DNA of 45,860 nucleotides, from positions 1 to 45,860 of IMG/VR virus record IMGVR_UViG_3300027881_000001. One strand, given 5' to 3'. The stretch comes from a virus. Positions 1 through 43,985 of the stretch are shown here, one piece after another (the first letter of the stretch is position 1; each line of letters opens with the position of its first letter). The notes under the pieces were generated by a model, which had not been told where the DNA came from, did not search any database, and was given only the letters and a program-made list of their open reading frames with translations. The translations under genes and the position numbers were made by a program.

Positions 1-127
1 AAAAAAGGTCTTGGTGCCTACAAAAGCGAAGGCCTTGCTAAAACTGTTCGCGCAGAGTATGAATCATCTTTTTATCACAAAGAAGCCAAAAAATACGTCC
101 AGTTCTTTGAGCCAGCTGGAACCGAGG
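1..127. repeat. Terminal direct overlap; nt 1-127 are identical to nt 45734-45860 (circular-assembly overlap or short DTR)
   Basis: Read directly: the window starts aaaaaaggtcttggtgcc. The same string restarts at 45734 and runs to the last base. Unit length is 45,733 bp. Confidence 0.9.
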
Positions 128-1569: not shown

Positions 1570-1862
1570 CCATTTACCCCCTCATTCGCGACCACGGCTT
1601 GCTTGGTGGTTTGGACGACAACGACCACGGCGCTATCTATTACACCGAGGCCGAGGTGGATGCCCTGTTTGGCGCTTACCTTGAACTTGACGGCGAGACT
1701 ACTGACGTAACCAACGGTACGTTTGACCTTACTACTACCGGCACATTGACAAGTACGGGCGGGATATTCAGTGTAGATGCCATACCCGGCGCGGGGGATT
1801 CTGTAGTAAATCAGTTGGTATGTCTAACCACAGACGGCGAGTTATATTTGAGGTTTACATGA
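1566..1862 (+). CDS. Small fibre-associated structural protein (HGLLGGLDDNDH...YY motif common in phage fibre N-termini)
   Basis: ATGA overlap with the upstream stop. TGA at 1860-1862 overlaps the next start. Motif recognised by eye. Confidence 0.5.
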   Translation: MTIYPLIRDHGLLGGLDDNDHGAIYYTEAEVDALFGAYLELDGETTDVTNGTFDLTTTGTLTSTGGIFSVDAIPGAGDSVVNQLVCLTTDGELYLRFT

Positions 1863-2620
1863 TAAGTATAGTTATTCCGTCTTACAAAGACCCGATGTTG
1901 CATAAGACTATCGGGTCGCTTTTAGATAATGCCGAGGGCGACATTGAGATAATCCCCGTCCTCGATGGCTATGACACTGAACTTACTAACGATGAGCGTG
2001 TCAGGCCGATTCGCCTTAGAAGTAATGTGGGTATGCGGGACGCTATCAATATAGGCGCTTCGCTCGCGCGCGGCAAGTATCTTATGAGGGTTGACGAGCA
2101 TTGCAGGTTCGGGCAGGGCTACGACATAATATTGACAGACAAAATACTTTACAATTGGATTGTTACGCCGAGACGGTATGAGCTTGACATAGAGAAGTGG
2201 GAGGTGATTGGCGAACCTATAGATAATGAGAGAATGATTATCGGCAGGAGTGTGATAGGCAAGAGGAAGGGCGGGCGTAAGTTCCACGCCCAGAACTGGC
2301 CGCAGGGGAACAGGGGAGAGTCGATATATAAAAAGACCGCCATGCAGGGTTCGTGCTGGATTATGGAGACGATGTTATGGCGTGATACTATCGGCAGGTT
2401 AGAGACTGAGGGGTATGGCGACTTGTATCAGGACACTACCGAGATGCTGTTCAAGATATGGCGTGTTGGTGGTAAGTTGATGTTGAATACTGATACATGG
2501 TACGCACATAAAGCAAGGAAGTTCAACCGTACCCACAGTTATCCGAGGGAAAAAGCGGAAGCGTCTTTCAAATACGCATTAGATAAATGGGAGGGGTTTT
2601 ACAGGGAGAGGGTTGCATGA
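1859..2620 (+). CDS. Glycosyltransferase, GT-A fold (GT2/GT27-like) with a DxH metal motif
   Basis: Refined start MISIVIPSYKD (ATGA coupling at 1859). Motifs seen: PVLDGYD, RVDEHCRF (D-x-H-C) and ...GSCWIM...FKIWRVGGKL..., resembling the WGGEN/CGG region of polypeptide GalNAc-transferases. Confidence 0.8.
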   Translation: MISIVIPSYKDPMLHKTIGSLLDNAEGDIEIIPVLDGYDTELTNDERVRPIRLRSNVGMRDAINIGASLARGKYLMRVDEHCRFGQGYDIILTDKILYNWIVTPRRYELDIEKWEVIGEPIDNERMIIGRSVIGKRKGGRKFHAQNWPQGNRGESIYKKTAMQGSCWIMETMLWRDTIGRLETEGYGDLYQDTTEMLFKIWRVGGKLMLNTDTWYAHKARKFNRTHSYPREKAEASFKYALDKWEGFYRERVA

Positions 2621-4692
2621 GTAAAGTTTCTATTATAATCCCCGCCCGCAACGAGATATATCTCGAACCGACCCTTAGAGATATATTAGCCAAGGCCAGA
2701 GGTGATATTGAAGTGCTGGTTGTGCTGGACGGTTACATCCCCGAACCGCAGATACACATGGACGACGACAGGGTTACTTTCATTCACTATGAAGAATCCA
2801 TAGGTCAAAGACCGGCCATCAATGCCGCCGCGCGTACAGCTACCGGAAAGTACATTCTTAAAACAGACGCTCATAGTATGTTCGACGAGGGGTTTGACGT
2901 TAAGTTACAAGAGGACTGTGAATACGATTGGACTGTCATTCCTCGTATGTATAATCTCGACGTAAAGAAGTGGGAGCCGAAATGGCACAAGAAAACGGAC
3001 TATATGTGGATTCGCTCTCCCCGCGCCAAGAAGAAGCCCTTCAGGCACTACTACTGGGATGGTAAATGCAAGACAGAACATCCTGAAGAATACAAGGCGT
3101 ACCGAGAGAGAACAAAGAACGCACCAGACATAGATGACGTTATGACAGGCCAAGGGGCTTGCTGGTTCATGCACAGAGAGCGTTTCTGGGAGTTGGGGGG
3201 ACTTGACGAGGGTCACGGCCAATGGGGCCAGATGGGCGTCGAGCTTGCCTGTAAGGCATGGCTGTCGGGCGGTCGTCATGTAGTCAATAAGAAAACGTGG
3301 TTTTCCCACTGGTTTAGAGGTGGTAGTGGTCCGGGCTTCCCATGGCCCGCAAGTGGCAAGAAACAGGAGGAGGCAAGGAAATACTCGCAGAAGTTCTGGC
3401 TTGGCGGGAAGTGGCCTTTACAGAAACATTCTATAGAGTGGCTGGCAGAGAAGTTTGCACCGCTTCCTGAGTGGGAGGTAAAGGACACTCGTGACCCAAA
3501 ACCACATACACAGGCTTATGCTTTAGCACAATGCAAACTACCGAAGAAAAAACTTATACCAGCTACGATTAAAACCAAAAGACTTAACGACACCGAGAAT
3601 AAGATGCCGTGGTTTGCAAAAGGCCATTGGTTCAGGGTTAAGACCCTATTCAAAGAGAGGTTAAGATTCGCCCGACCCGAACGGGCCGATGGTATCAGGT
3701 GGCAGGAGGAGTGTATTCCGCCGTTTGTTAAAGCTATTGTAGCTGGTGAGACTTTTACTGACGACGAATTGAAGAAGTTTGAGTATTACGACTATCTTGT
3801 TTCAAGACTCAACCCAAAGGTAAACCCGCCAGAAGGCCCGACCAGAAAGGGTGTTCGCCATGTCCTTAACTTGATGAAGGATATGATAAACTTAACTTAT
3901 AGTATGAGGGATGAGGGACTGAGAGCGCCGCTGGACTTCTTTATAAGGGGCGAGGTGGAGAACGGCAGGGACCGGGTTATATTGTGCCGGGGCGGGCGAA
4001 GGTTAGTGATAGCATACTATCTCGGCTGGAAGCATATACTCGGCAGGGTATGGCGAACAGAACATCTTTCAAAACGATTCATTCCTACGAATAAATGGCC
4101 CGATGGCGGTATTACTAAACTTGCCGCCGACCAGTTTGCCAAGCATGGAAAGTACGCTACCGATAAATACTGGAAGCACTGTTATACTTATCACTATGAC
4201 ATAGAATTAGCAGACCACAAAAACTCCCACCCCATAAAGATTCTGGAGCTTGGTGTGGCGCGCGGTGCTTCGTTAAAGTTGTGGAAGGACGCCTTCCCCA
4301 ACGCAAAGGTTTATGGTATCGACTCGAACCTTAAAAACATGAGGGAAGAATTTATTGACGATGAGATACAGGTCTTTCGGGGCGATATAAACAATGGTAA
4401 ATTCCTGAAAGAGATTGGCGAAGAACACGGCCCATTCAATATAATCATAGACGACTGTAACCACTTCCCCGCATCACAGAGAAGTGCCTTTGAATCCCTG
4501 TGGCCCTACCTTGAGTCGCAGGTGAACAGGGGCGGTAAGTATGTTATTGAAGACCTGCACCACAACTTCCGCGCCGAGGCGAACAAACCCATAGTTCCAA
4601 TGTTGACGGATATGGTAAGTGATATTTACAGGTCTAACGAAGTAAAGAATGTTTCTTTCTACCCAAATATAGTGTTTATAACAAAGGCGTAA
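2617..4692 (+). CDS. Three-domain fusion: GT-A glycosyltransferase (DxH), ParB/sulfiredoxin-like middle domain, CmcI-like class I SAM-dependent sugar O-methyltransferase
   Basis: Refined start MSKVSIIIPARNE (ATGA at 2617). GT motifs: VLDGY, KTDAHSMF, GACWFMHRERFWELGGLDEGHGQWGQMGVELACKAWLSGG. Middle domain: ILCRGGRRLVIAYYLGWKHI. C-terminus: ILELGVARGASLKLW...VYGIDSN...IIIDDCNH...GGKYVIEDL. Confidence 0.8.
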   Translation: MSKVSIIIPARNEIYLEPTLRDILAKARGDIEVLVVLDGYIPEPQIHMDDDRVTFIHYEESIGQRPAINAAARTATGKYILKTDAHSMFDEGFDVKLQEDCEYDWTVIPRMYNLDVKKWEPKWHKKTDYMWIRSPRAKKKPFRHYYWDGKCKTEHPEEYKAYRERTKNAPDIDDVMTGQGACWFMHRERFWELGGLDEGHGQWGQMGVELACKAWLSGGRHVVNKKTWFSHWFRGGSGPGFPWPASGKKQEEARKYSQKFWLGGKWPLQKHSIEWLAEKFAPLPEWEVKDTRDPKPHTQAYALAQCKLPKKKLIPATIKTKRLNDTENKMPWFAKGHWFRVKTLFKERLRFARPERADGIRWQEECIPPFVKAIVAGETFTDDELKKFEYYDYLVSRLNPKVNPPEGPTRKGVRHVLNLMKDMINLTYSMRDEGLRAPLDFFIRGEVENGRDRVILCRGGRRLVIAYYLGWKHILGRVWRTEHLSKRFIPTNKWPDGGITKLAADQFAKHGKYATDKYWKHCYTYHYDIELADHKNSHPIKILELGVARGASLKLWKDAFPNAKVYGIDSNLKNMREEFIDDEIQVFRGDINNGKFLKEIGEEHGPFNIIIDDCNHFPASQRSAFESLWPYLESQVNRGGKYVIEDLHHNFRAEANKPIVPMLTDMVSDIYRSNEVKNVSFYPNIVFITKA

Positions 4693-4693
4693 C

Positions 4694-4915
4694 ATGATAA
4701 TCGACACACAATCCACCCAATACCAGCAGTATTTAACAGGGTTGCAAAACCTTATTGATTTCTACAAGCCCAAGTTCGAGGTGTTCAAGAAACTGCCGCG
4801 GAGCAAACAAGCATTATGGCTTGAGAAAGACCCGCTGTTCAGGAAACTGATTAAGATAGGCTTGCACGTCGGGGACTGGTCCGGGCAGTTTGGTGCGGAG
4901 GTTCAAAATGATTGA
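4694..4915 (+). CDS. Hypothetical protein
   Basis: ORF tightly packed in the + strand operon, starting 2 nt after the upstream stop. Confidence 0.5.
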   Translation: MIIDTQSTQYQQYLTGLQNLIDFYKPKFEVFKKLPRSKQALWLEKDPLFRKLIKIGLHVGDWSGQFGAEVQND

Positions 4916-5303
4916 GTGGAAAAACTTTATGAAGTTGGATATAGCCGATATTCCAAAAGACACTGAGTACCAGCATTGCAACTTCTCTCAAAAGACCTGT
5001 ATTGACGAGGGTGGGGTTAAAAAAGGACACAGATTGTTCCCCGGCGACGACACGTCAAGGACGTTTATAAGATGTAATATGACAAACTGCGAACCGCCGC
5101 CTGGAAGCATCTGTGTTAAGTGCGGTGGTACAATTAAGGATTATGCTGTTCTTGGTAGTTTTGAAATCATAACTATAGATGGCGAAGAGATAATACAAAA
5201 CAACTACGTGGATATACTTTACGGTCGGTATCGTGATGGCTATCAATATTTACCAGTACCACAAGAAATCCCAATTAAGATAAAGTATTCAGGAGAAGAA
5301 TAA
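4908..5303 (+). CDS. Hypothetical Cys-containing protein
   Basis: Refined start at ATG 4908, preceded by GGAGG. Overlaps the upstream stop. The product contains HCNF...RCNMTNC...CVKCGG. Confidence 0.5.
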   Translation: MIEWKNFMKLDIADIPKDTEYQHCNFSQKTCIDEGGVKKGHRLFPGDDTSRTFIRCNMTNCEPPPGSICVKCGGTIKDYAVLGSFEIITIDGEEIIQNNYVDILYGRYRDGYQYLPVPQEIPIKIKYSGEE

Positions 5304-6358
5304 TGGCTGCTCCATACTATGTAACTCATAATGCTGGTGGTGGGGGGGTTGGGTCAGAGGTTGACCCCTTCACCCTTGCAGAAGCCTGTGATGCCGTGGC
5401 TGCTGGTGAAACTGTGTACGTTAAGGCTTCTGGTGCTTATAGCGTTCAGGATGGTGCGACAGGCTCTATTTTTTATCCATCCACAGCCGGAACTGTTACA
5501 ACACCTATAGTATGGCAGGGCTACCACACAACCATAGATGACGGTGGCATTGTTGAAATAGATGCCGACACTAATAATATGAATTACGCCTTGCTTGCAT
5601 CGGCGGCTACTATTCACTGTCAAGTGTTTAAGAATTTTGAATTTTGGGGTGCGAATACAAGGGGAGTAGCCTCTTCTGGCTCAGATAGTTGGGTATTTAA
5701 GAATTGCTCTATTCACGATACCAGTGGTGGAGAAGGTGTTGTTGGCGATAACACGTTAAAATTTGAAAACTGTATATCTTATAACAATTCAACAGCAGGT
5801 TTTGATGGAGACAGTAATGTCCTCTTTGTAGGCTGTGTTTCTCATGGAAATTCAGTTGGCTTTGCCTGTAACGTAGGGATTGGTTATGGCTGTCTTGGGT
5901 ATAATAATTCTGATGACTTTTTTCTTTCTCACGTAGGAAATACGCTTACTGGAATACTGGGTTGTACTACAGACGGAGAAGGTACTGAGGTTGCTTTTGA
6001 TTTTGACAACGCCGCAGATTCTTTTATGATGATAGCCTATAATAATATCTTTCGTGATAATACGACACCTATAGTCGTTGAAACTGACAGTGGTGAATTG
6101 CAAACTATTGGCAGGAACCTCTACGATGCAAAAGATAATGACAATTCCAACTGCCTTGTTGTGTCTGCTGGTGACGGAGTTGGAGACAGGGGCGACGTAG
6201 ATGGTGTGGATGCTGGATTATTTACTAACGAGGCGGGCGATGACTATTCATTGCCTGCCGACTCAACTGCTTTGGCAAGTGGACTTGACGCTCATTATAC
6301 AGTGTCTTTCTGGGCAGACTACAACGAAGGGGCAGGGGACAATCCTCCCGCAGAATAA
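5303..6358 (+). CDS. Right-handed parallel beta-helix (pectate-lyase-fold) tail/fibre protein
   Basis: N-terminus ...DPFTLAEACDAVAAGETVYVKASGAY. Repeated coils follow: FKNCSIHDTSG / FENCISYNNSTAG / FVGCVSHGNSVG. Confidence 0.7.
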   Translation: MAAPYYVTHNAGGGGVGSEVDPFTLAEACDAVAAGETVYVKASGAYSVQDGATGSIFYPSTAGTVTTPIVWQGYHTTIDDGGIVEIDADTNNMNYALLASAATIHCQVFKNFEFWGANTRGVASSGSDSWVFKNCSIHDTSGGEGVVGDNTLKFENCISYNNSTAGFDGDSNVLFVGCVSHGNSVGFACNVGIGYGCLGYNNSDDFFLSHVGNTLTGILGCTTDGEGTEVAFDFDNAADSFMMIAYNNIFRDNTTPIVVETDSGELQTIGRNLYDAKDNDNSNCLVVSAGDGVGDRGDVDGVDAGLFTNEAGDDYSLPADSTALASGLDAHYTVSFWADYNEGAGDNPPAE

Positions 6359-8026
6359 ATGGCTTGGAATACTCTTGATATTGGTAGTCAACAGCACGGC
6401 TCAGCGTGGAATGCGCTGGACATCGGGGCGGAACAGGCAGATGTGGCGGCAGGGTCGGTATCTCCTTCGCCGTCATCCAGCCCTTCAATAAGCGCATCGC
6501 CGAGCGTCTCCGCATCTCCGTCTGCCTCCCCCAGTATATCCGCAAGCCCGTCCATCTCTGCGTCACCATCATTAAGTCCTTCTGTTTCAGCCTCGCCAAG
6601 CGCCTCTCCGTCTATAAGCGCAAGCCCATCAGTATCTTCATCTCCGAGTATATCGGCAAGTCCATCATCCAGCCCAAGCATATCCGCGTCTCCGAGTACA
6701 TCTCCAAGTATATCGGCTTCCCCATCGGTATCAGCATCGCCGAGCGCCAGCCCAAGTATAAGTTCAAGTCCGTCAATATCAGCGTCTCCAAGTGCTTCGC
6801 CGAGCATATCATCTTCACCCTCTATATCTGCAAGCCCCAGTGCAAGCCCAAGCGCAAGCGCATCGCCGAGTTCGTCTCCGAGCATATCTGCCTCGCCATC
6901 TACTTCGCCGTCTGTCAGTTCCTCTCCGAGTATATCTGCATCGCCTTCGGCTTCACCGTCTGTTAGTGCAAGTCCGAGTTCTTCGCCTTCTATCTCTGCC
7001 AGCCCAAGCGCCTCGCCGAGTGTAAGTTCCAGCCCCAGCATAAGTGCTTCGCCCTCTGCCAGTCCGAGCGTTTCATCTTCTCCAAGTGTGTCGGCTTCGC
7101 CGAGCCTAAGCCCGTCAATTAGCGCCTCACCATCAGCAAGTCCTTCAGTTAGCTCCTCGCCTTCGGTCAGTGCAAGCCCATCTGCCTCCCCATCAATATC
7201 AGCCTCACCTTCAGTATCAGCTTCGCCGTCAAGCTCGCCATCTGTAAGTTCAAGCCCAAGTGTTTCAGCAAGCCCGTCATCGTCACCGTCCGTATCGGCT
7301 TCTCCGTCATCTTCACCGAGCGTATCTTCCTCGCCGTCTGTGAGCGTGTCGGCTTCACCGTCGTCCAGCCCAAGCGTTAGCGCAAGCCCATCAGCCTCGC
7401 CTTCAGCCACCTGGTACAAGGTAGTTACCGAAAAGGGCGGGTATGACATAGCTGGAACGAATACGATTGAAACGCTCAGGGTGGGAAATGTTCGCGGGAC
7501 ATCTTCTATATGGTGGAGAGTACAGCATGTTGACTTGTCGGCGGTGTCCAAGGGTGCCTCTAACGCAGTCTGGACGGCCCAGAGTGCAAATAACTTAAAC
7601 GGTTTCCAGTTAGACGCTGCCAATGAATATCTATACTTTAATACCCACATAGGCACAGACTGGGATGCGGCCAGTGATTTAGAGGTTGAGGTCCAGTTCG
7701 AGACAAACGCAGACAATTCAGGCGGGGGCGGGTCCGGCACTGATACGGTAAACTTCGATTTAGTTATGTACTATAAGGGTAGCGAAGAGACCGCCCAAAA
7801 GACACAAGTCCTTGCATCTTCGACCACGGTGGGAGAGGCAGCGCAGTATTACCATGAAAAAGCCACGTTTACAATCAATTACGATTTGGTTGACCATGTA
7901 GTTCAGGTGGGGGACTGTTGTTCATGGCGACTAAACTTAAACACAGACGATTCTGAGGTCGATGATGTAATAGTCCACCATGCAATGTTCAGATATAAAA
8001 CAAGTAAGCCAAGAGCAGAAGTATAG
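6359..8026 (+). CDS. Fibre-like protein: short N-terminus, roughly 316-aa Ser-Pro repeat stalk, roughly 205-aa globular (jelly-roll/lectin-like?) C-terminal domain
   Basis: The start follows the upstream TAA directly. The translation is dominated by SPSISASPSVSASPSASP... units. The non-repetitive C-terminus starts at ATWYKVVTEKGGYD. Confidence 0.8.
   Translation: MAWNTLDIGSQQHGSAWNALDIGAEQADVAAGSVSPSPSSSPSISASPSVSASPSASPSISASPSISASPSLSPSVSASPSASPSISASPSVSSSPSISASPSSSPSISASPSTSPSISASPSVSASPSASPSISSSPSISASPSASPSISSSPSISASPSASPSASASPSSSPSISASPSTSPSVSSSPSISASPSASPSVSASPSSSPSISASPSASPSVSSSPSISASPSASPSVSSSPSVSASPSLSPSISASPSASPSVSSSPSVSASPSASPSISASPSVSASPSSSPSVSSSPSVSASPSSSPSVSASPSSSPSVSSSPSVSVSASPSSSPSVSASPSASPSATWYKVVTEKGGYDIAGTNTIETLRVGNVRGTSSIWWRVQHVDLSAVSKGASNAVWTAQSANNLNGFQLDAANEYLYFNTHIGTDWDAASDLEVEVQFETNADNSGGGGSGTDTVNFDLVMYYKGSEETAQKTQVLASSTTVGEAAQYYHEKATFTINYDLVDHVVQVGDCCSWRLNLNTDDSEVDDVIVHHAMFRYKTSKPRAEV
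6461..7407 (+). repeat. Protein-level tandem repeat (SPSxSA hexapeptides mixed with SPSx tetrapeptides) encoded with diversified codons
   Basis: Roughly 50% Ser and 25% Pro in the translation. Ser is spelled tct/tcg/tca/tcc/agc/agt within neighbouring units, so the DNA repeat is imperfect. Confidence 0.85.
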
Positions 8027-8035
8027 GAGAACAAA

Positions 8036-8260
8036 ATGCCGCCAGTGGAAACATCGACAGAAACGCAGATGATACTAACTGAAATCGCCGAACTAAAAAC
8101 GGACATAAAAACTATCGACACCGCCATCAGGGGTAACGGCAAAGACGGCATCATGGTTGACATCGCCTGCCTCAAACAGTTCAGGAAGTTTGTCTGCTGG
8201 ATAGGGGCAAGTCTGTTTACGGGGGTGCTGTTAGTGCTGGTGGTCAGGTTGCTGATTTAG
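8036..8260 (+). CDS. Tail-anchored small membrane protein (holin/lysis-related candidate); last gene of the rightward late operon
   Basis: Amphipathic N-terminal half and a C-terminal hydrophobic helix, WIGASLFTGVLLVLVVRLLI. Confidence 0.45.
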   Translation: MPPVETSTETQMILTEIAELKTDIKTIDTAIRGNGKDGIMVDIACLKQFRKFVCWIGASLFTGVLLVLVVRLLI

Positions 8261-15149: not shown

Positions 15150-15397
15150 TACCCCGCTGGTGGATAGAAGAGGCCGCTGCCCGGCGCAGGCAGGAGCAGC
15201 TTTTGCAGGATTCTATTACTTGCCCCAACTGCGGGCACAAGGTCGGGGATGAAGAACTTGATGAGTGCGATGCCTGCGGCAAAGGGATTTGCCCGGAATG
15301 TATGATATGCTACGATAAGGCGTGCCTTTGTTCTATGGACTGCCAGATAGATTGCGTGGCGGCTGAAGCCGATAGGATTTACGAGGAGCATAAATAG
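15146..15397 (+). CDS. Zinc-ribbon small protein
   Basis: Refined start at ATG 15146 (AGGAGG upstream, ATGA coupling). Contains CPNCGH...CDACGKGICPEC. Confidence 0.5.
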   Translation: MIPRWWIEEAAARRRQEQLLQDSITCPNCGHKVGDEELDECDACGKGICPECMICYDKACLCSMDCQIDCVAAEADRIYEEHK

Positions 15398-15409
15398 GAA
15401 GGAACGAAC

Positions 15410-39545: not shown

Positions 39546-41606
39546 ATGGCGGTTTCAAATCAAACAAATAGAATATCGGCCACAGGAAGTGGTTCGGCTG
39601 GACAGGAAGTGGATTTTGTATTTCCAGTAACCGCGTCAAGTGATTTGCTGGTAATTATGCGAGTTACGGCCACCGGAGTTGAAACAGAGTTTACCGAGAA
39701 TTCTGATTATACAGTAGCGGACCCGGACGGCGGCGTTGACCCGACTGCCGACTGGTCTTCTGGCGGAACGGTTACCACTGTTACTGCGGTTACTGCTGCG
39801 CAGCAAATCCACATTATACGAGATACTCCAATGACCCAAACGCTCGACCTTGAATCCGGTGATGATTTCAGTTCTACAGACATAGAGGCCGCTATTGACC
39901 GAAATACAAGATTGATTCAGGAAAACTCCGACACTAACAGCAGGATATTGAGATTTCCAAACACTGACCCAACGACTGCTTTTGGGGAATTAGACAATTC
40001 AGTGGACAGGGCGGGTAAGTATTTGTATTTCGATTCCTCTACCGGCGCGCCTACAGTGGCCTCGGAAACAGATTCTCTTACCACGACCGTTAGTTCTTTT
40101 ATGGAAACAGTTTTAGATGATACAAGTGCCGCCGCCGTCAGGGCGACACTGGGTGTATCTGCGGTGTTTAATGTTAAAACTTACGGCGCAGTCGGGGATG
40201 GCGCGACCGACGACACTGCCGCCATCAAATTAGCCATAGCCGCCGCCGCCGCCAATCAGGGTTCGGGTTCGCTTGGCAGCGGGAATTTCCCAACAAGTGA
40301 AATTGGCGGAATAGTTTATTTCCCGCCCGGCAGGTATCTTATTACTGATACTTTGGATATTACAGAAGGTATTTATCTTGTTGGTAACGGCAAGTACGCA
40401 TCTACTATCTATAATACCGGCTCAGGCGTGCCTGCTATTAAGTTTGCTAACTCAGGCCGGTCATCTTCAGAGTCTTTCGGCGGTGCAAGAAATCTTAAAA
40501 TACTTGGTGGCAGTAGTGCCGATGCCGGGGCCTACGGCATAGAAGTTAATGTAGTTCATTATCTTGATTTCGAGAACCTGCTTATAATGGACCACGGTGA
40601 CAGTGGTATATATGTCCATGCACTTACCGTTGGCGGAAATTATAGAAACGTTTATTCATATACCAACCGCGGGGATGGTATTGAGTTCGAGAACCTTACT
40701 ACTTCGACTGCGCATAATTTCTATAGCTGTCAGTTCAGGGTAAATGATGGTATAGGTATAAATCTCGCTGGCACAAAACATACTTTCCATGGTACTGTAT
40801 CAGAGTCTAACGGCGGGATAGGTGTAGTTGCTCAATCTTCTACAAGAAATTGTACATTCTATGATTTGTATCTTGAGAACAATGAAATAACCGCCACTAC
40901 AACCTCTGTCCAGATGGAGATAAATGGCCATAATAGTCGATTCTATAATACGTTTGTAAACGCCGCCGATGGTATAATTAAAATAGTTTCAGGGGGAGTT
41001 TACAGCCACTTCTACAGTACTGCCGTCGCTGATAACAGTGGTGCGGCGAATTTTCAGATAGATAGTGGCGCCACGCACAATCTTTTGATAATGACCGCAT
41101 CTTCCACGGCCTTGGTTTTAACTAATAACGGCGGCGAAAGTAACCGAAGAATTGACAACAGTTATATGGCAATCATAGAAGATTTTACTCTCGGCGGCAA
41201 TATTATAGCTACCGGCAGCGATGAATTAGAAATAGACCATACTTCCACCGACCAGTATATCAGGGTTTCGGGCGGCGATGTCGGTGCCGGTGGCCAGATT
41301 ATCCTTTACGGCGATGCCCACGCAAATGCCAGCCAGGTTGCGGTAACCGCCGCTGGTGGCGCGACTATAACTGCTGATGGCGGCACTACAATAGACCAGT
41401 CTTCCGCTTCCGGGGCCGTTCCCGTTCTCAAACTTGACCAGGCCGATATAGATGATTCTTTCGTGGATATTGTCGGCACTTCCGCCGCCGATGGTACAAG
41501 GAGTATATCTTCTGACACAACCGAAGAAGGCGCTAAATTCGGCGCATTCAGGGTCGAGATAAATGGTGTAACAAAATGGATAAGGGTCTATGACGACCAT
41601 TCATAA
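39546..41606 (+). CDS. Tailspike/tail fibre with a pectate-lyase-type beta-helix (depolymerase candidate)
   Basis: FNVKTYGAVGDGATDDTAAIKLAI, then many beta-helix coils. Confidence 0.8.
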   Translation: MAVSNQTNRISATGSGSAGQEVDFVFPVTASSDLLVIMRVTATGVETEFTENSDYTVADPDGGVDPTADWSSGGTVTTVTAVTAAQQIHIIRDTPMTQTLDLESGDDFSSTDIEAAIDRNTRLIQENSDTNSRILRFPNTDPTTAFGELDNSVDRAGKYLYFDSSTGAPTVASETDSLTTTVSSFMETVLDDTSAAAVRATLGVSAVFNVKTYGAVGDGATDDTAAIKLAIAAAAANQGSGSLGSGNFPTSEIGGIVYFPPGRYLITDTLDITEGIYLVGNGKYASTIYNTGSGVPAIKFANSGRSSSESFGGARNLKILGGSSADAGAYGIEVNVVHYLDFENLLIMDHGDSGIYVHALTVGGNYRNVYSYTNRGDGIEFENLTTSTAHNFYSCQFRVNDGIGINLAGTKHTFHGTVSESNGGIGVVAQSSTRNCTFYDLYLENNEITATTTSVQMEINGHNSRFYNTFVNAADGIIKIVSGGVYSHFYSTAVADNSGAANFQIDSGATHNLLIMTASSTALVLTNNGGESNRRIDNSYMAIIEDFTLGGNIIATGSDELEIDHTSTDQYIRVSGGDVGAGGQIILYGDAHANASQVAVTAAGGATITADGGTTIDQSSASGAVPVLKLDQADIDDSFVDIVGTSAADGTRSISSDTTEEGAKFGAFRVEINGVTKWIRVYDDHS

Positions 41607-42523: not shown

Positions 42524-43985
42524 ATTTCCGATTAGACGCACAGAAAGAACTATATCAGGCAGGGGTGCGGCTGTTCGCGCCAATATAGATGTTGATACCG
42601 GCCATGCCGCTCTCGGCGAGGCGCTGAAAGATGTTGGCTCTGCTATCACTGGCGTTGCCACTCAATTTGCACAGAAATCCAAAAGACAAAGAGAGATGGA
42701 GGAAAGGCTTGCCGCCGAACGCCAGCAGAGGCTTGATACGAGGTCGAAAATAGCCGCCGAGGCTGTTATTAAAAGGGCGGAGATAGAACATGACGGTTTT
42801 AAGAAAGAAAACGCCGACACGTCTCTGTGGGAGAAAGATTTTCAGGACAGAATGGCGATTGCAAGGCAAGAGATAGATGGTCTTGATATGTCGGACGATG
42901 CCCGTCTTTTAGTGGGGGCGAAGTTCGAGAGCCGCCTAATGACAGGAGAATCGACAACTTTAGTCGATACGACTTTGAGGGAAAGCGAAGATACAAAAGA
43001 GGCGGCTGACGGCGCCCTTGTAAATGCCATCGTTGGCGGCGACCCGGATGCGATAAAGGAGGCCACTGGTTTATGGCAGGATGCTTACGCAGGAACAATG
43101 GATAAGGCCGAACAAAAGGCTTTGTTCGAAGAGTTGTCAAGGAAGGCACTGAATATGAGGGGTGATGCGGCGGTTGAGGCGGTACACGCAGCGGTTAAGG
43201 CTAATAATTTTGGGGCGGCAAGGGTTTTGGTTGACAATCCCGATATACCAGAATCAAAACAAACTACGCTTAGGGGCACGATAGACTCCAAGGAGTTGCT
43301 GGCATTTGAAAACAACTTAAATGACAGTCTTATTGGAATAGACAATGCGCCAGATATGTCTCAGTCAGATTTTGATATGCAGGCAATAAAGTTAAAGGAC
43401 TCGATTACTGCCTCTAATGTGCCGGGCGCTAACAAGAAAAAACTGCTTGCAGATTTAGAGAGATGGAGAAGGGGTACTGGGGAAGTTGATTATGCCAAGG
43501 TGCTTTCCTTGAATCAGGAAATGGACGCTGCGCAGAGGTCGGGAATAGTTGACCCGACAATAGAAACAAGAATTATGCGGGCCAACCTGGAGGGTGCGTT
43601 TGGCGGCAGGAATAAGGGCGGGCAAAAAACTTATGCAGATATGATAAGGCGGTTCAAGAAACTTGAATTTGACGAGAGGTTGCAGGCAATCGCTCCAATT
43701 GTGAGTGCGTTTGCAAGAGAAAATTCATACGACCCCGAACTTGTGTTCCTGTTTAATCAAGCCAAGAATAAGGTTGTTGCCGAGAATCCAGATGCTGACA
43801 CTAAAGATTTATTTATCAAGGTAAGCGCTCTTGCCGAATCGTATGGTATACTTCCGCCCGATGTGGTATCGGCTCGTCTTAGACAGAAGCCAAAGACTGT
43901 ACTAATGAAATCGCCGGAAGGAATATCGTATCATGTTCCCATAGATAAGAAACAAAAATTCCTCGACAATGGGTACACTGAATGA
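42516..43985 (+). CDS. Internal virion protein (gp15-position)
   Basis: Refined start MAKFPIRRTE (ATG 42516). Helical, 489 aa. Confidence 0.55.
   Translation: MAKFPIRRTERTISGRGAAVRANIDVDTGHAALGEALKDVGSAITGVATQFAQKSKRQREMEERLAAERQQRLDTRSKIAAEAVIKRAEIEHDGFKKENADTSLWEKDFQDRMAIARQEIDGLDMSDDARLLVGAKFESRLMTGESTTLVDTTLRESEDTKEAADGALVNAIVGGDPDAIKEATGLWQDAYAGTMDKAEQKALFEELSRKALNMRGDAAVEAVHAAVKANNFGAARVLVDNPDIPESKQTTLRGTIDSKELLAFENNLNDSLIGIDNAPDMSQSDFDMQAIKLKDSITASNVPGANKKKLLADLERWRRGTGEVDYAKVLSLNQEMDAAQRSGIVDPTIETRIMRANLEGAFGGRNKGGQKTYADMIRRFKKLEFDERLQAIAPIVSAFARENSYDPELVFLFNQAKNKVVAENPDADTKDLFIKVSALAESYGILPPDVVSARLRQKPKTVLMKSPEGISYHVPIDKKQKFLDNGYTE

What the first reader, a model, noticed from the sequence alone, without database searches (positions are those of the whole stretch)
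6359..8026. Fibre-like protein with a roughly 316-aa Ser-Pro stalk (SPSxSA/SPSx units), a candidate mucin-like O-glycosylation substrate encoded with diversified codons
More than half of this 555-aa protein is an uninterrupted run of SPSISA / SPSVSA / SPSA / SPSS units (nt about 6461-7407). A normal globular C-terminal domain follows. Phage fibres usually use collagen-like GXY, coiled-coil or beta-helix spacers, so a roughly 50% Ser, 25% Pro stalk is unusual. It looks like a mucin or cellulosome-linker sequence, which are classic O-glycosylation targets.

The gene lies about 1.7 kb downstream of the GT/methyltransferase cassette in the same operon. Neighbouring units use different Ser and Pro codons, so the peptide repeat is kept while long perfect DNA repeats are avoided. 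That is consistent with selection against recombinational collapse.
Basis: partly seen in the sequence, partly recalled or inferred. Interest (0 to 1): 0.8.

Follow-up and report, generated by a model that had tools for sequence, protein, structure and literature searches.

The report
Phage fibre with mucin-like serine stalk
A T7-like phage encodes a fibre protein whose 319-residue alternating-serine stalk sits just downstream of two enzymes related to the animal enzymes that start mucin glycosylation, and this enzyme-plus-stalk pairing recurs in many uncultured phages, pointing to an undescribed way for phages to sugar-coat their particles.

Summary
ORF 6359-8026 (555 aa) has a 32-aa leader, a 319-aa strictly alternating (Ser-x)n stalk (55% Ser, 19% Pro) and an all-beta jelly-roll C-terminal domain. 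Only this frame gives a periodic peptide. Synonymous sites are fully randomised, and a second assembly is identical. The source annotation missed the gene.

The glycosylation idea gains strong indirect support. Both upstream GT2 domains belong to a large unnamed family. Its profile matches polypeptide GalNAc-transferases over the whole catalytic domain (E 7e-20), with the DxH and distal His metal ligands conserved. The 701-aa enzyme also carries a complete MycE/SpnK-type sugar O-methyltransferase.

In 93 distinct loci chosen only for this GT, 35 carry Ser-x runs, and all 90 runs lie on the GT strand (median distance 589 nt). For loci of at least 12 kb the count is 19/25, against 0/24 in controls. 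The stalks sit in unrelated carrier proteins, including a tail nozzle protein.

The codon claim is not supported: scrambling equals chance, and other stalks keep DNA repeats.

Glycosylation and virion location remain untested. I rate it a new variant of virus-encoded protein glycosylation, of high interest.

The parts
1820..2620 (+). GT2a, a 266-aa stand-alone ppGalNAc-T-like GT-A glycosyltransferase with a DxH motif (VDEHC) and a distal His (TWYAH).
   Evidence: Pfam GT2, E 1e-11. Best PDB sequence hits are GalNAc-T4 and T12. It is 34% identical to the GT domain of the next gene and 52.5% identical to its L032 orthologue.
2587..4692 (+). Bifunctional 701-aa enzyme. The source aa, consistent with a start at 2617. 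The N-terminal part is a ppGalNAc-T-like GT-A domain (about nt 2617-3486). The C-terminal ~400 aa are a complete MycE/SpnK-type sugar O-methyltransferase, made of an auxiliary domain plus a SAM-MT domain.
   Evidence: Pfam GT2 plus weak Methyltransf_24. MycE 3SSM, E 5e-21. Family profile A3 against PDB has 14 ppGalNAc-Ts as its top hits, E 7e-20. AF2 model pLDDT 79; Foldseek gives MycE/SpnK over about 400 columns (E 1e-16) and then GalNAc-T4/T2/T1. At least 1,535 homologues, unnamed or generically named.
4694..5303 (+). Two small overlapping ORFs of unknown function (73 aa at 4694-4915; 131 aa at 4908-5303) between the GT cassette and the fibre module.
   Evidence: Gene calls in the identical Logan contig L157, mapped to the window. 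No Pfam, PHROG or NCBIfam hit for the 137-aa reading.
5303..6358 (+). 351-aa protein of unknown function. It directly abuts the fibre gene, in the same frame, separated by one TAA. The beta-helix-like appearance is an impression from the sequence only.
   Evidence: No hit in Pfam, PHROGs, NCBIfam or PDB. No similarity to the beta-helix-stalk fusion in L159.
6359..8026 (+). The fibre gene (555 aa): leader, Ser-x stalk and C-terminal jelly-roll domain.
6359..6454 (+). N-terminal 32-aa leader with the tandem motif AWNtLDIGsqQ / AWNaLDIGaeQ. It is a candidate virion-docking or enzyme-docking peptide.
   Evidence: Sequence. Similar tandem [LN][DT]IG[AS]xxQ leaders directly precede the Ser-x stalks in L158 and L120.
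6455..7411 (+). 319-aa (Ser-x)n stalk with x = P, A, I, V or S and a 10-aa SPSxSASPSA pattern. It is the proposed O-glycosylation acceptor and extended spacer.
   Evidence: The same type of stalk recurs next to the GT family.
7412..8026 (+). C-terminal region: a short low-confidence linker, then a roughly 170-aa ten-strand jelly-roll domain that is the putative distal binding knob.
   Evidence: 11 homologues with different N-termini. AF2 pLDDT 81, core 85-96. The best BFVD matches are the C-termini of collagen-repeat proteins of Catovirus and Klosneuvirus (TMq 0.65 and 0.63). PDB matches are weak: Eph LBD, Fbs1 sugar-binding domain, CBM22 and TNF family. The domain caps fibre-like proteins of 200-1,090 aa in 19 IMG/VR loci.
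8036..8260 (+). 74-aa protein with a C-terminal hydrophobic segment, in the T7 holin slot. It is the last gene of the late + strand block.
   Evidence: A strong Shine-Dalgarno sequence (AGGAG) lies upstream. A comparable 73-aa gene follows the C-domain protein in L001.
39546..41606 (+). Context: the 686-aa primary tailspike, with a gp17-type N-terminal adaptor and a pectate-lyase-like beta-helix. It is a possible docking partner for the fibre.
   Evidence: PHROG tail fibre/spike N-terminal hits and Pfam PF12708.
43982..45733 (+). Context: the first part of the 1,106-aa gp16-like internal virion protein. It continues across the circular junction to window 1569 and places the GT cassette and fibre directly after gp16.
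   Evidence: 127-bp terminal repeat. ORF reconstruction. 1,106-aa gene call in L157.

Best explanation
The 555-aa protein is a late-expressed, virion-associated fibre of a T7-like podovirus. It has three parts:
- a short N-terminal leader, the candidate anchor or docking peptide;
- a 319-residue alternating (Ser-x)n stalk;
- a distal jelly-roll knob that probably binds a ligand.

The stalk is the dedicated acceptor of the phage's own glycosylation cassette. In the infected cytoplasm, the two ppGalNAc-T-like GT-A enzymes would transfer sugars from host nucleotide-sugars onto the stalk serines. One may initiate and the other extend, or they may act on different sites. The MycE/SpnK-like domain fused to the second GT would then O-methylate the attached sugar. 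Dense O-glycans on a Pro/Ala-rich backbone would hold the chain in an extended, protease-resistant bottle-brush. By analogy with mucins and polyproline-II, at about 0.25-0.31 nm per residue, that is roughly 80-100 nm. The knob would be projected far from the particle, and the stalk would have a glycan surface.

Shown here:
- the gene and its peptide-level selection;
- the fold of the knob;
- the enzyme homologies and conserved catalytic residues;
- the repeated, strand-consistent genomic linkage of this GT family with Ser-x stalks in unrelated carrier proteins.

Inferred:
- that the stalk is actually glycosylated, and with which sugar;
- that the protein is in the virion;
- its oligomeric state and what the knob binds.
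For: 1. Peptide-level selection. Only frame +0 is low-entropy and periodic, synonymous sites are random, and the frame runs without a stop into a conserved domain. An independent assembly is identical.

2. GT homology. Profile A3 (62 sequences) matches ppGalNAc-T1, T2, T4, T9, T10 and T12 as its top 14 PDB hits, with E down to 6.6e-20, over profile positions 4-250 of 273. Generic GT2s match only about the first 110 residues. D84, H86 and H231 are invariant in the family, and both window GTs carry them. The AF2 model's best GT matches are again ppGalNAc-Ts. An unrelated GT lineage beside other stalks (L005) also best-hits ppGalNAc-Ts.

3. Sugar O-methyltransferase. MycE, E 5e-21 by sequence. 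The whole MycE/SpnK fold matches over about 400 columns, E 1e-16.

4. Linkage, forward test. 5 of 7 sampled phage-size contigs with Ser-x stalk proteins have GT2 or sugar-nucleotide cassettes within 10 kb upstream on the same strand.

5. Linkage, reciprocal test.
- Among 93 distinct loci chosen only for a GT2-MT relative, 35 have Ser-x runs of at least 24 aa.
- All 90 runs are on the GT strand.
- The median distance is 589 nt.
- The frequency rises from 3/31 to 15/22 as the available flank grows.

6. Controls.
- 27 distinct loci (482 kb) have 0 runs.
- For loci of at least 12 kb the count is 19/25 against 0/24, Fisher p 1e-8.
- In relatives picked by tail tubular protein B, 12 have neither feature, 1 has both and none is discordant.

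7. Conserved enzymes, varied carriers.
- L032 has GT orthologues (52% and 49% identity) next to an unrelated protein of more than 1,417 aa with two stalks.
- 40 of 46 stalk ORFs carry at least 100 aa of non-repeat sequence.
- Carriers include LamG, beta-helix and other domains.

8. Virion association.
- The gene sits after gp16 and before the holin-slot gene.
- In the related phage L156, stalks lie in a LamG protein abutting tail tubular protein B, and in an ORF that ends with the C-terminus of tail tubular protein B.
- The C-domain caps tail-fibre-like proteins and lies beside tailspikes.

9. Precedent.
- SRR domains of bacterial adhesins are alternating Ser in 10-20-aa patterns and are O-glycosylated (PMC6973325); the abstract of PMC7948813 states that this glycosylation is intracellular.
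- Mycobacteriophages glycosylate capsid and tail-tube proteins with their own GTs (PMC12363180, PMC12619734).
Against: - There is no direct evidence of glycosylation or of virion incorporation.
- Similarity to ppGalNAc-Ts is remote (about 15-19% identity in the structural alignments), so neither donor nor acceptor specificity can be read from it.
- Thr, which as I recall ppGalNAc-Ts accept well, is almost absent from the stalks (1.1%).
- The linkage is not universal. 7 of 22 cassette loci with at least 10 kb of flank lack a run. 2 of 7 stalk-bearing contigs lack a GT within 10 kb.
- Loci are not phylogenetically independent, so the Fisher p-value overstates the evidence. The L005-L010 cassettes form one lineage.
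- The 555-aa protein has no recognisable virion-attachment domain.
- The tail-tubular-B control loci only partly reach the fibre slot.
- The window cassette has no sugar-nucleotide genes.
- The host is unknown.
Confidence: 0.6

Rival explanations
1. The stalk is simply an unmodified, intrinsically extended or flexible Ser/Pro/Ala spacer, like a PT/PS linker. The GT/MT cassette works on something else, such as host envelope glycans (receptor masking, superinfection exclusion) or another virion protein. The neighbourhood would then only reflect both being accessory genes of the host-range region.
For: - No modification is demonstrated.
- Ser/Pro/Thr-rich linkers without nearby GTs exist; L031 has a TPTPTATPT linker with no GT hit.
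- 2 of 7 stalk contigs show no GT within 10 kb.
- 7 of 22 well-flanked cassette loci lack a stalk.
- The literature reads GTs and LamG proteins of CPR phages as auxiliary host-surface genes (PMC11310336).
Against: - The linkage is tight (median 589 nt), 100% strand-consistent (90/0), and preserved while the carrier protein changes.
- Controls show no stalks in 482 kb.
- The GTs are closest to protein-directed ppGalNAc-Ts rather than to polymer synthases or bactoprenol GTs such as GtrB.
- By my reading of the sequences, the window GTs have no obvious membrane segments or signal peptides. This was not run through a predictor.
Confidence: 0.22
2. The protein is glycosylated but is not a virion fibre. 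It would be released at lysis or displayed on the host as an adhesion or decoy glycoprotein: an auxiliary gene that changes host aggregation, attachment or immunity to other phages.
For: - There is no recognisable virion-attachment domain.
- The CPR-phage literature proposes adhesion roles for LamG and GT genes.
- Relatives of the GT family occur on long MAG contigs that may be cellular, such as L163 at 319 kb.
Against: - By inspection of the sequence, there is no signal peptide or membrane anchor.
- The gene sits inside the late structural operon, in the gp17 slot just before the holin-slot gene.
- In L156 the stalks lie within and beside the tail nozzle protein.
- The C-domain caps tail-fibre-like proteins next to tailspikes.
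Confidence: 0.12
3. The stalk is not translated as described. It could be a non-coding or opposite-strand feature (as the source annotation implies), an assembly artefact, or a frameshifted region, leaving only the 181-aa C-terminal domain as a real gene.
For: The public gene calls give a 353-aa opposite-strand ORF plus a 181-aa gene. The opposite strand is also free of stops across the repeat.
Against: - Peptide regularity is far higher in frame +0 (1.89 against 2.82 bits, strict Ser alternation), while its synonymous sites are random, which is the signature of selection on that peptide.
- The frame starts at an ATG abutting the upstream stop and runs into the conserved domain.
- Two assemblies are identical.
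- Dozens of analogous stalks are in frame with globular domains on both sides.
Confidence: 0.03
4. Sub-claim of the first reader: the codon diversification is an adaptation that protects the repeat from recombinational collapse.
For: The window stalk has no DNA repeat longer than 16 nt despite 25-aa exact peptide repeats.
Against: - The observed repetition equals the codon-shuffle null. The longest repeat is 16 nt against 16.8+-2.3, and duplicated 12-mers number 23 against 23.6+-9.2.
- Same-codon use at repeat lags is near expectation.
- Of 29 other stalks of at least 100 aa, 55% have significantly more DNA repetition than the null and none has less.
- Such stalks therefore tolerate DNA repeats. 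The window's stalk looks like an old repeat whose synonymous sites have drifted under selection for Ser-x.
Confidence: 0.15

Closest known systems
Serine-rich repeat glycoproteins (SRRPs: Fap1, GspB, SraP, PsrP, L. reuteri SRRP) of Gram-positive bacteria
   Same: - Both have long stalks of alternating serines in 10-20-aa patterns. [quoted passage not shown]
- SRRPs are O-glycosylated by dedicated glycosyltransferases (PMC6973325), intracellularly according to the abstract of PMC7948813. That these GTs are encoded next to the substrate gene and that SRRPs form surface fibrils is from my own knowledge.
- In both, the stalk is combined with a separate binding region.
   Different: - There is no long signal peptide or AST domain, no LPXTG anchor and no accessory Sec genes.
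- The enzymes are GT-A ppGalNAc-T-like, not GtfA/GtfB.
- Pro is the commonest x residue (31%).
- The system is encoded by a phage and placed on virion-type proteins.
Mucin-type O-glycosylation: polypeptide GalNAc-transferases (CAZy GT27) acting on Pro/Thr/Ser tandem repeats
   Same: - The phage GT family is homologous to the ppGalNAc-T catalytic domain over its whole length, with the DxH and distal His ligands conserved.
- The putative acceptor is a long Ser/Pro/Ala-rich tandem repeat.
- The expected physical result is an extended bottle-brush.
   Different: - The setting is a prokaryotic virus and the cytoplasm.
- There is no ricin-type lectin domain and no membrane anchor.
- The acceptor has Ser almost exclusively (Thr 1%).
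- The donor sugar is unknown.
- One copy is fused to a sugar O-methyltransferase.
Mycobacteriophage virion glycosylation (Che8, Corndog, Myrna; Freeman et al. 2023, known here through PMC12363180 and PMC12619734)
   Same: - Phage-encoded glycosyltransferases modify the phage's own structural proteins.
- The window's MT domain is about 30% identical to mycobacteriophage methyltransferases that sit next to glycosyltransferases (McProf and prophiFSIL01-1; Omega and Wildcat also match the MT domain).
   Different: - The mycobacteriophage targets are the C-termini of the capsid and tail-tube subunits, not a long dedicated repeat stalk.
- No cultured phage in INPHARED has the GT domain of this family.
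Giant-virus autonomous glycosylation (chlorovirus PBCV-1 A064R) and giant-virus collagen-repeat fibre proteins
   Same: - A064R is a virus-encoded multi-domain enzyme with two GT domains plus a methyltransferase that methylates the terminal sugar of the capsid glycan (PMC7019647). That parallels the GT + sugar-MT fusion here.
- The fibre's C-terminal domain is structurally closest to the C-termini of Catovirus and Klosneuvirus collagen-repeat proteins.
   Different: - The hosts are eukaryotic.
- The PBCV-1 glycans are described as N-glycans / N-linked on the major capsid protein.
- No sequence relationship to A064R was tested.
- The stalk here is (Ser-x)n, not GXY collagen.
T7 gp17-type tail fibres and tailspikes
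   Same: The gene lies after gp16 and before the holin-slot gene. It has a distal binding domain at the C-terminus.
   Different: The gp17 N-terminal adaptor is absent; it sits on the separate 686-aa tailspike. There is also no coiled-coil or beta-helical shaft.

Membership tests
Serine-rich repeat glycoproteins (SRRPs) | Long domain of alternating Ser residues in 10-20-aa repeat patterns | tested here: met
   159 consecutive S-x dipeptides with a 10-aa SPSxSASPSA pattern. Definition taken from PMC6973325.
Serine-rich repeat glycoproteins (SRRPs) | Extended N-terminal signal peptide of about 90 aa plus an AST domain | tested here: not met
   The N-terminus is the 32-aa MAWNTLDIGSQQHGSAWNALDIGAEQADVAAG, with no hydrophobic segment. 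Judged by inspection; no signal-peptide predictor was run.
Serine-rich repeat glycoproteins (SRRPs) | C-terminal LPXTG cell-wall anchor | tested here: not met
   The protein ends ...HHAMFRYKTSKPRAEV, and no LPXTG occurs anywhere in it.
Serine-rich repeat glycoproteins (SRRPs) | Encoded with accessory Sec (SecA2/SecY2/Asp) genes and GtfA/GtfB | tested here: not met
   Neighbouring genes are two GT2-type GT-A enzymes and unknowns. Only the neighbourhood and the structural module were scanned, not every ORF of the genome.
Polypeptide GalNAc-transferases (GT27), applied to the two adjacent GTs | Homology to the ppGalNAc-T catalytic GT-A domain over its full length | tested here: met
   Profile A3 against PDB: top 14 hits are ppGalNAc-Ts, E 6.6e-20, profile positions 4-250 of 273. 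Foldseek of the AF2 model gives GalNAc-T4/T2/T1, TgGalNAc-T3 and PGANT9 at E 1e-9 to 1e-8.
Polypeptide GalNAc-transferases (GT27), applied to the two adjacent GTs | DxH metal-binding motif plus a distal His | tested here: met
   D84, H86 and H231 are invariant in 62 family members. They align to LDAHC and to the conserved GH of the (S)HVGHVFR segment in GalNAc-T1. The window has VDEHC/TWYAH and TDAHS/TWFSH. Identifying these as the Mn ligands of ppGalNAc-Ts rests on my knowledge of that family.
Polypeptide GalNAc-transferases (GT27), applied to the two adjacent GTs | C-terminal ricin-type lectin domain and N-terminal type II membrane anchor | tested here: not met
   GT2a is 266 aa and consists of the catalytic domain only. 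The 701-aa enzyme carries a MycE/SpnK-like MT instead.
Polypeptide GalNAc-transferases (GT27), applied to the two adjacent GTs | Transfers GalNAc from UDP-GalNAc to Ser/Thr of a polypeptide | not testable with these tools
   Requires an enzyme assay. The only support is the genomic linkage to Ser-x stalks.
MycE/SpnK-type sugar O-methyltransferases, applied to residues ~300-701 of the 701-aa enzyme | Auxiliary N-domain plus class I SAM-MT domain with sequence and fold similarity over the whole protein | tested here: met
   3SSM at E 5e-21 and 8IA9 at E 1e-14 by sequence. Foldseek aligns 364-409 columns to chains of 350-394 residues, E 1e-16. A glycine-rich ILELGVxxGxS motif is conserved.
Phage virion glycosylation of the mycobacteriophage type | Phage-encoded GTs located with the structural genes | tested here: met
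   The GT cassette lies between gp16 and the fibre genes in the late operon.
Phage virion glycosylation of the mycobacteriophage type | Glycans demonstrated on virion proteins | not testable with these tools
   Needs glycoproteomics of virions.
Phage virion glycosylation of the mycobacteriophage type | Acceptor is the C-terminal tail of capsid and tail-tube subunits | tested here: not met
   The only Ser-x run in the genome is the internal stalk of the 555-aa protein. The capsid protein (33589-34512) has no such run.
T7 gp17-type tail fibre | N-terminal gp17 adaptor domain that docks to the tail | tested here: not met
   No PHROG or Pfam hit for the 555-aa protein. The adaptor-type N-terminus is on the 686-aa tailspike.
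T7 gp17-type tail fibre | Gene position after gp16 and before the holin | tested here: met
   The order is gp14-like, gp15-like, gp16-like (43982->1569), GTs, p351, fibre, then a 74-aa protein with a hydrophobic C-terminal segment.
Collagen-like viral fibre with C-terminal knob | GXY triple-helix repeats | tested here: not met
   The stalk has no Gly at all.
Collagen-like viral fibre with C-terminal knob | C-terminal jelly-roll knob of the same fold | tested here: met
   BFVD Foldseek: Catovirus and Klosneuvirus collagen-repeat proteins, E 5e-11 and 4e-10, TMq 0.65 and 0.63.

The most novel reading that the evidence does not exclude
Uncultured tailed phages carry a widespread, so far unannotated 'glyco-stalk' module. 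It consists of ppGalNAc-T-like glycosyltransferases, often fused or paired with sugar O-methyltransferases and sugar-nucleotide enzymes, plus a portable (Ser-x)n acceptor stalk. The stalk can be inserted into fibres, LamG or beta-helix proteins, and even the tail nozzle protein. The result would be mucin- or SRRP-like bottle-brush appendages on virions. This would be a bacterial-virus counterpart, and possibly an evolutionary relative, of the enzymes that initiate mucin-type O-glycosylation. It has been hidden partly because gene callers mis-annotate the stalks as opposite-strand ORFs.
Probability: 0.5. Interest if true: 0.9.

Novelty: new variant of a known kind. Interest (0 to 1): 0.8.

Why it matters
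Virus-encoded glycosylation of virion proteins is established for giant viruses. Among tailed phages, the cases I am aware of are a few mycobacteriophages. If the inference here holds, it has several consequences.

- **A distinct, modular and apparently common system.** The GT family has at least 1,535 members, found in sediment, groundwater and other metagenomes and in contigs binned with Patescibacteria, FCB, Planctomycetota and Proteobacteria.
- **ppGalNAc-T-like chemistry extended to bacterial viruses.**
- **A portable acceptor tag for glyco-engineering**, in the form of the (Ser-x)n stalk and its cognate enzymes.
- **Reinterpretation of phage 'auxiliary' genes.** Many phage glycosyltransferase and LamG genes now read as auxiliary metabolic genes may instead be virion-decoration genes.
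- **A systematic annotation error** at these stalks would be exposed.
- **Directly testable hypotheses** about what glycan-coated fibres do for phages: adhesion to host glycocalyx or biofilm matrix, protease resistance, or shielding.

Tried and rejected
- **Pfam, PHROGs and NCBIfam** on the fibre, its C-domain, p351 and the 137-aa ORF gave no hits.
- **tblastn of the C-domain against INPHARED phages** gave no match.
- **PDB Foldseek of the C-domain** gave only weak generic jelly-roll matches (Eph LBD, Fbs1, CBM22, TNF) with TMq 0.3-0.43. No specific lectin or CBM family can be assigned.
- **The search for related loci with the single GT2-MT sequence** found nothing. It worked only after aligning with the L032 orthologue.
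- **Degenerate DNA scan for the stalk peptide.** The first pattern had too few specified bases. The longer one gave 3 loci, of which 2 were false positives: L030 was out of frame and L031 was a TPTPTA linker.
- **Orthologues of the window's fibre, p351 or p137 among 111 cassette loci:** none found.
- **Homology between p351 and the beta-helix-stalk fusion of L159:** none. p351 against PDB: none. The beta-helix label for p351 is therefore unverified.
- **Idea that L005-L010 and the window share one cassette:** rejected, since there are no BLASTP hits between them.
- **Active avoidance of DNA repeats:** rejected as unsupported.
- **Freeman et al. 2023 (PMC10527164)** could not be read, so it is cited only through secondary sources.
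- **Literature searches.** Searches for phage + ppGalNAc-T/GT27, serine-rich phage stalks and glycosylated phage fibres found no prior description. The library covers open-access papers only.
- **Tail-tubular-B relatives as a control.** Their flanks mostly end inside gp15/gp16, so this control is only partly informative for the fibre slot.

Full report
**1. The observation**

The ORF 6359..8026 (+ strand, ATG, 555 aa) is present exactly as described. Six-residue units (SPSISA, SPSVSA, SPSVSS) alternate with four-residue units (SPSA, SPSS), giving a 10-aa SPSxSASPSA pattern.

A sharper description is that every second residue is Ser for 159 consecutive dipeptides. It is the only such run in any frame of the genome. 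Confident genes of the genome average 6.5% Ser and 3.6% Pro, so chance is not an issue.

**2. Is the stalk really translated in this frame?**

The repeat has no stops in two frames, +0 and an opposite-strand shadow.

- Frame +0 gives 7 amino-acid types and 1.89 bits of entropy, with strict Ser alternation. The shadow frame gives 11 types and 2.82 bits.
- Third codon positions of frame +0 are almost uniform (1.98 bits).
- All six Ser codons are used, 35% of them AGY.
- The longest exact DNA repeat is 16 nt, although exact peptide repeats reach 25 aa.
- Tandem Repeats Finder sees only short weak arrays.

This is the signature of selection on the peptide in frame +0.

- The ATG directly abuts the TAA of the upstream gene, and the frame runs without a stop into a conserved domain.
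- A Logan assembly of the same phage (L157, 45,468 bp) is 100% identical over 12.4 kb including the stalk. Assembly collapse is therefore unlikely, although the reads may come from the same sample.
- The public gene calls place a 353-aa gene on the opposite strand over the stalk and cut the fibre to a 181-aa fragment.
- The 555-aa protein is not in the 15-billion-protein collection.

**3. Genome context**

The contig has a 127-bp terminal direct repeat, so it is a circularly assembled genome of about 45.7 kb. It is a T7-like podovirus, with the following genes:

- large terminase;
- T7-type portal;
- scaffold;
- major capsid protein;
- tail tubular proteins A and B;
- a 686-aa tailspike with a gp17-type N-terminus and a pectate-lyase-like domain;
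- internal virion proteins.

A 1,106-aa gp16-like gene spans the junction, from 43982 to 1569. Downstream of it, all on the + strand, come:

- GT2a (1820-2620);
- GT2-MT (2587-4692);
- two small ORFs;
- a 351-aa protein (5303-6358);
- the fibre gene;
- a 74-aa protein with a hydrophobic C-terminus (8036-8260).

After that, transcription switches to the minus strand. There is no + strand terminator-like site between 1500 and 8900.

**4. The C-terminal domain**

- It has 11 homologues (40-74% identity). Their N-terminal parts are all different and none has a Ser-x stalk.
- AlphaFold2 with that alignment gives a confident ten-strand all-beta jelly roll (pLDDT 81 overall, core 85-96).
- PDB matches are generic: Eph ligand-binding domain, Fbs1 sugar-binding domain, CBM22, TNF family and BcsB.
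- In the viral structure library the best matches are the C-termini of collagen-triple-helix-repeat proteins of Catovirus and Klosneuvirus (E 5e-11 and 4e-10; TMq 0.65 and 0.63), followed by uncharacterised tailed-phage proteins.
- In 19 IMG/VR loci the domain caps proteins of 200-1,090 aa whose upstream parts look like tail fibres, with LamG domains and beta-helical or tandem repeats.
- In L004 it lies directly upstream of a 968-aa pectate-lyase tailspike.

It behaves as a shuffled distal fibre-tip module. 'Fibre-like protein with a normal globular C-terminal domain' is a fair description. The stalk takes the place that a collagen-like or beta-structured shaft has in relatives.

**5. The enzymes**

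GT2a and the N-terminal domain of the 701-aa protein are paralogues, 34% identical.

Sequence evidence:
- Single-sequence searches of the PDB already put polypeptide GalNAc-transferases on top, though weakly.
- A profile of 62 non-redundant family members (A3) gives ppGalNAc-T1, T2, T4, T9, T10 and T12 as the top 14 hits. E reaches 6.6e-20, over profile positions 4-250 of 273. Ordinary GT2s align only over about the first 110 residues at E 1e-12 or worse.
- The invariant residues D84, H86 and H231 align with the DxH motif and the distal His of GalNAc-T1. To my knowledge these are the Mn-binding triad of ppGalNAc-Ts.
- Both window GTs have them: VDEHC/TWYAH and TDAHS/TWFSH.

Structure evidence:
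- The AF2 model of the 701-aa enzyme (pLDDT 79) confirms this. Its best GT matches are GalNAc-T4, T2 and T1, Toxoplasma GalNAc-T3 and PGANT9.
- Residues of about 300-701 align over about 400 columns to the whole of MycE and SpnK (E 1e-16; sequence E 5e-21 to MycE). These enzymes O-methylate deoxyhexoses already attached to an acceptor.

The cassette is thus two protein-GT-like enzymes plus a sugar O-methyltransferase. The family is large, with at least 1,535 proteins at E<=1e-10 in a capped search. Its members are unnamed or generically labelled. No cultured phage in INPHARED has the GT domain. The MT domain finds mycobacteriophage methyltransferases, some of which sit next to glycosyltransferases.

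**6. Is the stalk linked to the enzymes beyond this one genome?**

*Forward test.* A search with the leader plus stalk returned 448 hits. Many were on contigs of 40-47 kb, typically as LamG - (SPSxSx)n - C-terminal domain. Of 7 such phage-size contigs examined:
- 5 have GT2 genes within 10 kb upstream on the same strand. These come with UDP-glucose dehydrogenase, epimerase/dehydratase, DegT aminotransferase or Methyltransf_24 genes. In 2 of the 5 the GT is immediately adjacent.
- 2 have none.

Those five cassettes are related to each other but show no BLASTP similarity to the window's GTs. Even so, the 558-aa GT of L005 also best-hits ppGalNAc-Ts.

*Bridge.* A degenerate DNA scan for the stalk peptide found L032. 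There, orthologues of both window GTs (52.5% and 48.7% identity over their full lengths) are followed by an unrelated protein of more than 1,417 aa with two Ser-x stalks.

*Reciprocal test.* An alignment of the two GT2-MTs retrieved 31 viral and 80 (of at least 210) metagenomic loci.
- After de-duplication there are 93 distinct loci (789 kb), of which 35 contain Ser-x runs of at least 24 aa.
- All 90 runs are on the GT strand.
- The median GT-to-run distance is 589 nt (IQR 67-1,592). In the window it is 1,763 nt.
- The share with a run rises with available flank: 3/31 below 2 kb, 8/17 at 2-5 kb, 9/23 at 5-10 kb, and 15/22 at 10 kb or more.
- 40 of 46 stalk ORFs include at least 100 aa of non-repeat sequence.

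*Controls.*
- 27 distinct loci (482 kb), chosen by the C-domain or by tail tubular protein B, contain no run. For loci of at least 12 kb the contrast is 19/25 against 0/24, Fisher p 1e-8.
- Among 13 relatives chosen by tail tubular protein B, 12 have neither a GT2 of this type nor a stalk, one has both and none is discordant. Their flanks only partly reach the fibre slot.
- In GTDB genome bins, 9 of 16 GT loci also have same-strand stalks.

*Caveat.* The loci are related to one another, so the p-value overstates independence. The strongest argument is qualitative: the enzymes are conserved while the stalk-bearing protein keeps changing.

**7. Virion association of stalks**

L156 is a relative of the window phage (tail tubular protein B 45-55% identical) that carries homologous GTs and an MT.
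- A LamG-stalk protein abuts tail tubular protein B.
- The tail tubular B reading frame ends '...SSSVSASPS*'.
- The next ORF consists of an extra domain, a stalk of about 180 aa and the C-terminus of tail tubular protein B.

L159 fuses a beta-helix N-domain to a stalk, and L077 and L036 place stalks between other globular domains. This makes virion display of such stalks likely, but it does not prove it for the window's protein. That protein lacks any recognisable attachment domain. Its 32-aa leader has a tandem LDIGxxQ motif that recurs in front of the stalks of L158 and L120. The leader could be a virion anchor or an enzyme-docking signal.

**8. Codon diversification**

- Shuffling codons among identical amino acids gives a longest repeat of 16.8+-2.3 nt (observed 16) and 23.6+-9.2 duplicated 12-mers (observed 23). 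Same-codon use at repeat lags is near expectation. The DNA is as scrambled as chance allows, not more.
- Across 29 other stalks of at least 100 aa, 55% retain significantly more DNA repetition than the null (z>3) and none has less.
- Stalks evidently grow by duplication and then decay at synonymous sites. The window's stalk is an old one. Selection against recombinational collapse is neither required nor specifically supported.

**9. Most likely mechanism**

See the best explanation, which I hold at a confidence of about 0.6. Late in infection the ppGalNAc-T-like enzymes O-glycosylate the stalk serines in the cytoplasm using host nucleotide-sugars. The MycE/SpnK-like domain methylates the sugar. 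The glycosylated Ser/Pro/Ala chain forms an extended bottle-brush of roughly 80-100 nm that carries a jelly-roll knob at its tip. The length figure is my estimate from 0.25-0.31 nm per residue, by analogy with mucins and polyproline-II.

The closest functional analogues are:
- the serine-rich repeat glycoproteins of Gram-positive bacteria, which have alternating Ser in 10-20-aa patterns and are O-glycosylated, intracellularly according to PMC7948813 (PMC6973325);
- mucins with ppGalNAc-Ts;
- mycobacteriophage virion glycosylation;
- the chlorovirus GT-GT-MT enzyme A064R.

It is not a member of the SRRP family, because it has no signal/AST domain, LPXTG anchor, aSec genes or GtfAB. The GTs are not canonical GT27 enzymes either, because they lack a lectin domain and a membrane anchor.

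**10. Novelty and limits**

Searches of the open-access library found no description of phage ppGalNAc-T-like enzymes or of Ser-x stalks as phage glycosylation substrates. The CPR-phage literature reads LamG and GT genes as auxiliary host-surface genes. I class the finding as a new variant of a known kind, namely virus-encoded glycosylation of its own structural proteins, and as highly interesting.

Everything about actual modification, sugar identity, virion location, oligomeric state, ligand and host remains inference.

Noticed in passing
window 43982-45733 continuing to 1-1569: The gp16-like internal virion protein (1,106 aa) spans the circular junction. It has a DnaJ J-domain Pfam hit, and the HPD motif is visible as 'YHPDK'. 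A J-domain in an ejected internal protein is unusual.
   Followed up: partly
window 1-127 and 45734-45860: A 127-bp exact terminal direct repeat shows that the contig is a circularly assembled complete genome of about 45.7 kb.
   Followed up: yes
window 6388-7740 (- strand); L157 7086-8147 (-); L156 9177-9716 (-) and 13691-14314 (-): Ser-x stalks generate long stop-free shadow ORFs on the opposite strand, rich in G, E, A, D and L. Gene callers pick these instead of the true frame, so stalk-bearing proteins are systematically truncated or missing in public annotations.
   Followed up: partly
window 6356-6361 and 6003-6030: The 351-aa gene and the fibre gene are in the same reading frame, separated by a single TAA immediately followed by ATG. 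A near-consensus sigma-70-type match (TTGACA-16-TATGAT, 11 of 12) lies inside the 351-aa gene, about 330 nt upstream of the fibre start.
   Followed up: no
L156 8491-14648 (IMGVR_UViG_3300033429_000008): In a related phage, the tail tubular protein B reading frame ends in '...SSSVSASPS*'. The next ORF is an extra domain plus a Ser-x stalk plus the C-terminus of tail tubular protein B. This could be a stalk-containing insertion in the nozzle protein, or a frameshift or assembly break.
   Followed up: partly
L163 5838-22594 (CAZNUP010000002.1, a 319-kb contig binned as Gammaproteobacteria): A cluster of four GT2 genes of this family, two Methyltransf_24 genes, an RmlD-type reductase and another methyltransferase-like ORF (motif read by eye) is followed by a 1,146-aa uninterrupted Ser-x run. 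Whether it is a prophage, a large phage or a cellular locus is unknown.
   Followed up: partly
window 6359-6454; L158 9217-9330; L120 about 15278-15460: Short leaders with a tandem [LN][DT]IG[AS]xxQ motif directly precede Ser-x stalks in three different loci. A second conserved leader of about 50 aa (M.LYP.D...IMFS..D.R.HFV) precedes the stalks in L073, L075 and L083.
   Followed up: partly
P0015, P0028 and P0061: Several LamG-stalk proteins end, right after the stalk, in short Tyr/Lys-rich repeats (Y-x-[DP]-K-Y, for example 'YADKYVVRGNTYTSKYSTTGNTYTDKY'). These may be an attachment motif.
   Followed up: no
L158-L172: Relatives of the GT family are binned with Candidatus Saccharibacteria (5 loci), Paceibacterota (3), FCB group, Phycisphaerales, Cloacimonadota and Gammaproteobacteria MAGs. 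Several contigs are phage-sized, so they may be mis-binned phages. The binning could still hint at hosts.
   Followed up: no
H3-H16 (Mycobacterium phages McProf, Omega, Wildcat and others): The MycE-like MT domain of the window enzyme is 26-33% identical to mycobacteriophage methyltransferases. In McProf and prophiFSIL01-1 a glycosyltransferase is annotated beside the MT. This suggests sugar methylation may also be part of mycobacteriophage glycan decoration.
   Followed up: no
L031 3708-3760 (- strand): A high-GC viral contig encodes a classical TPTPTATPT Pro-Thr linker in a 519-aa ORF, and the local GT2 HMM found no GT nearby. It serves as a contrast case to the Ser-x stalks.
   Followed up: no
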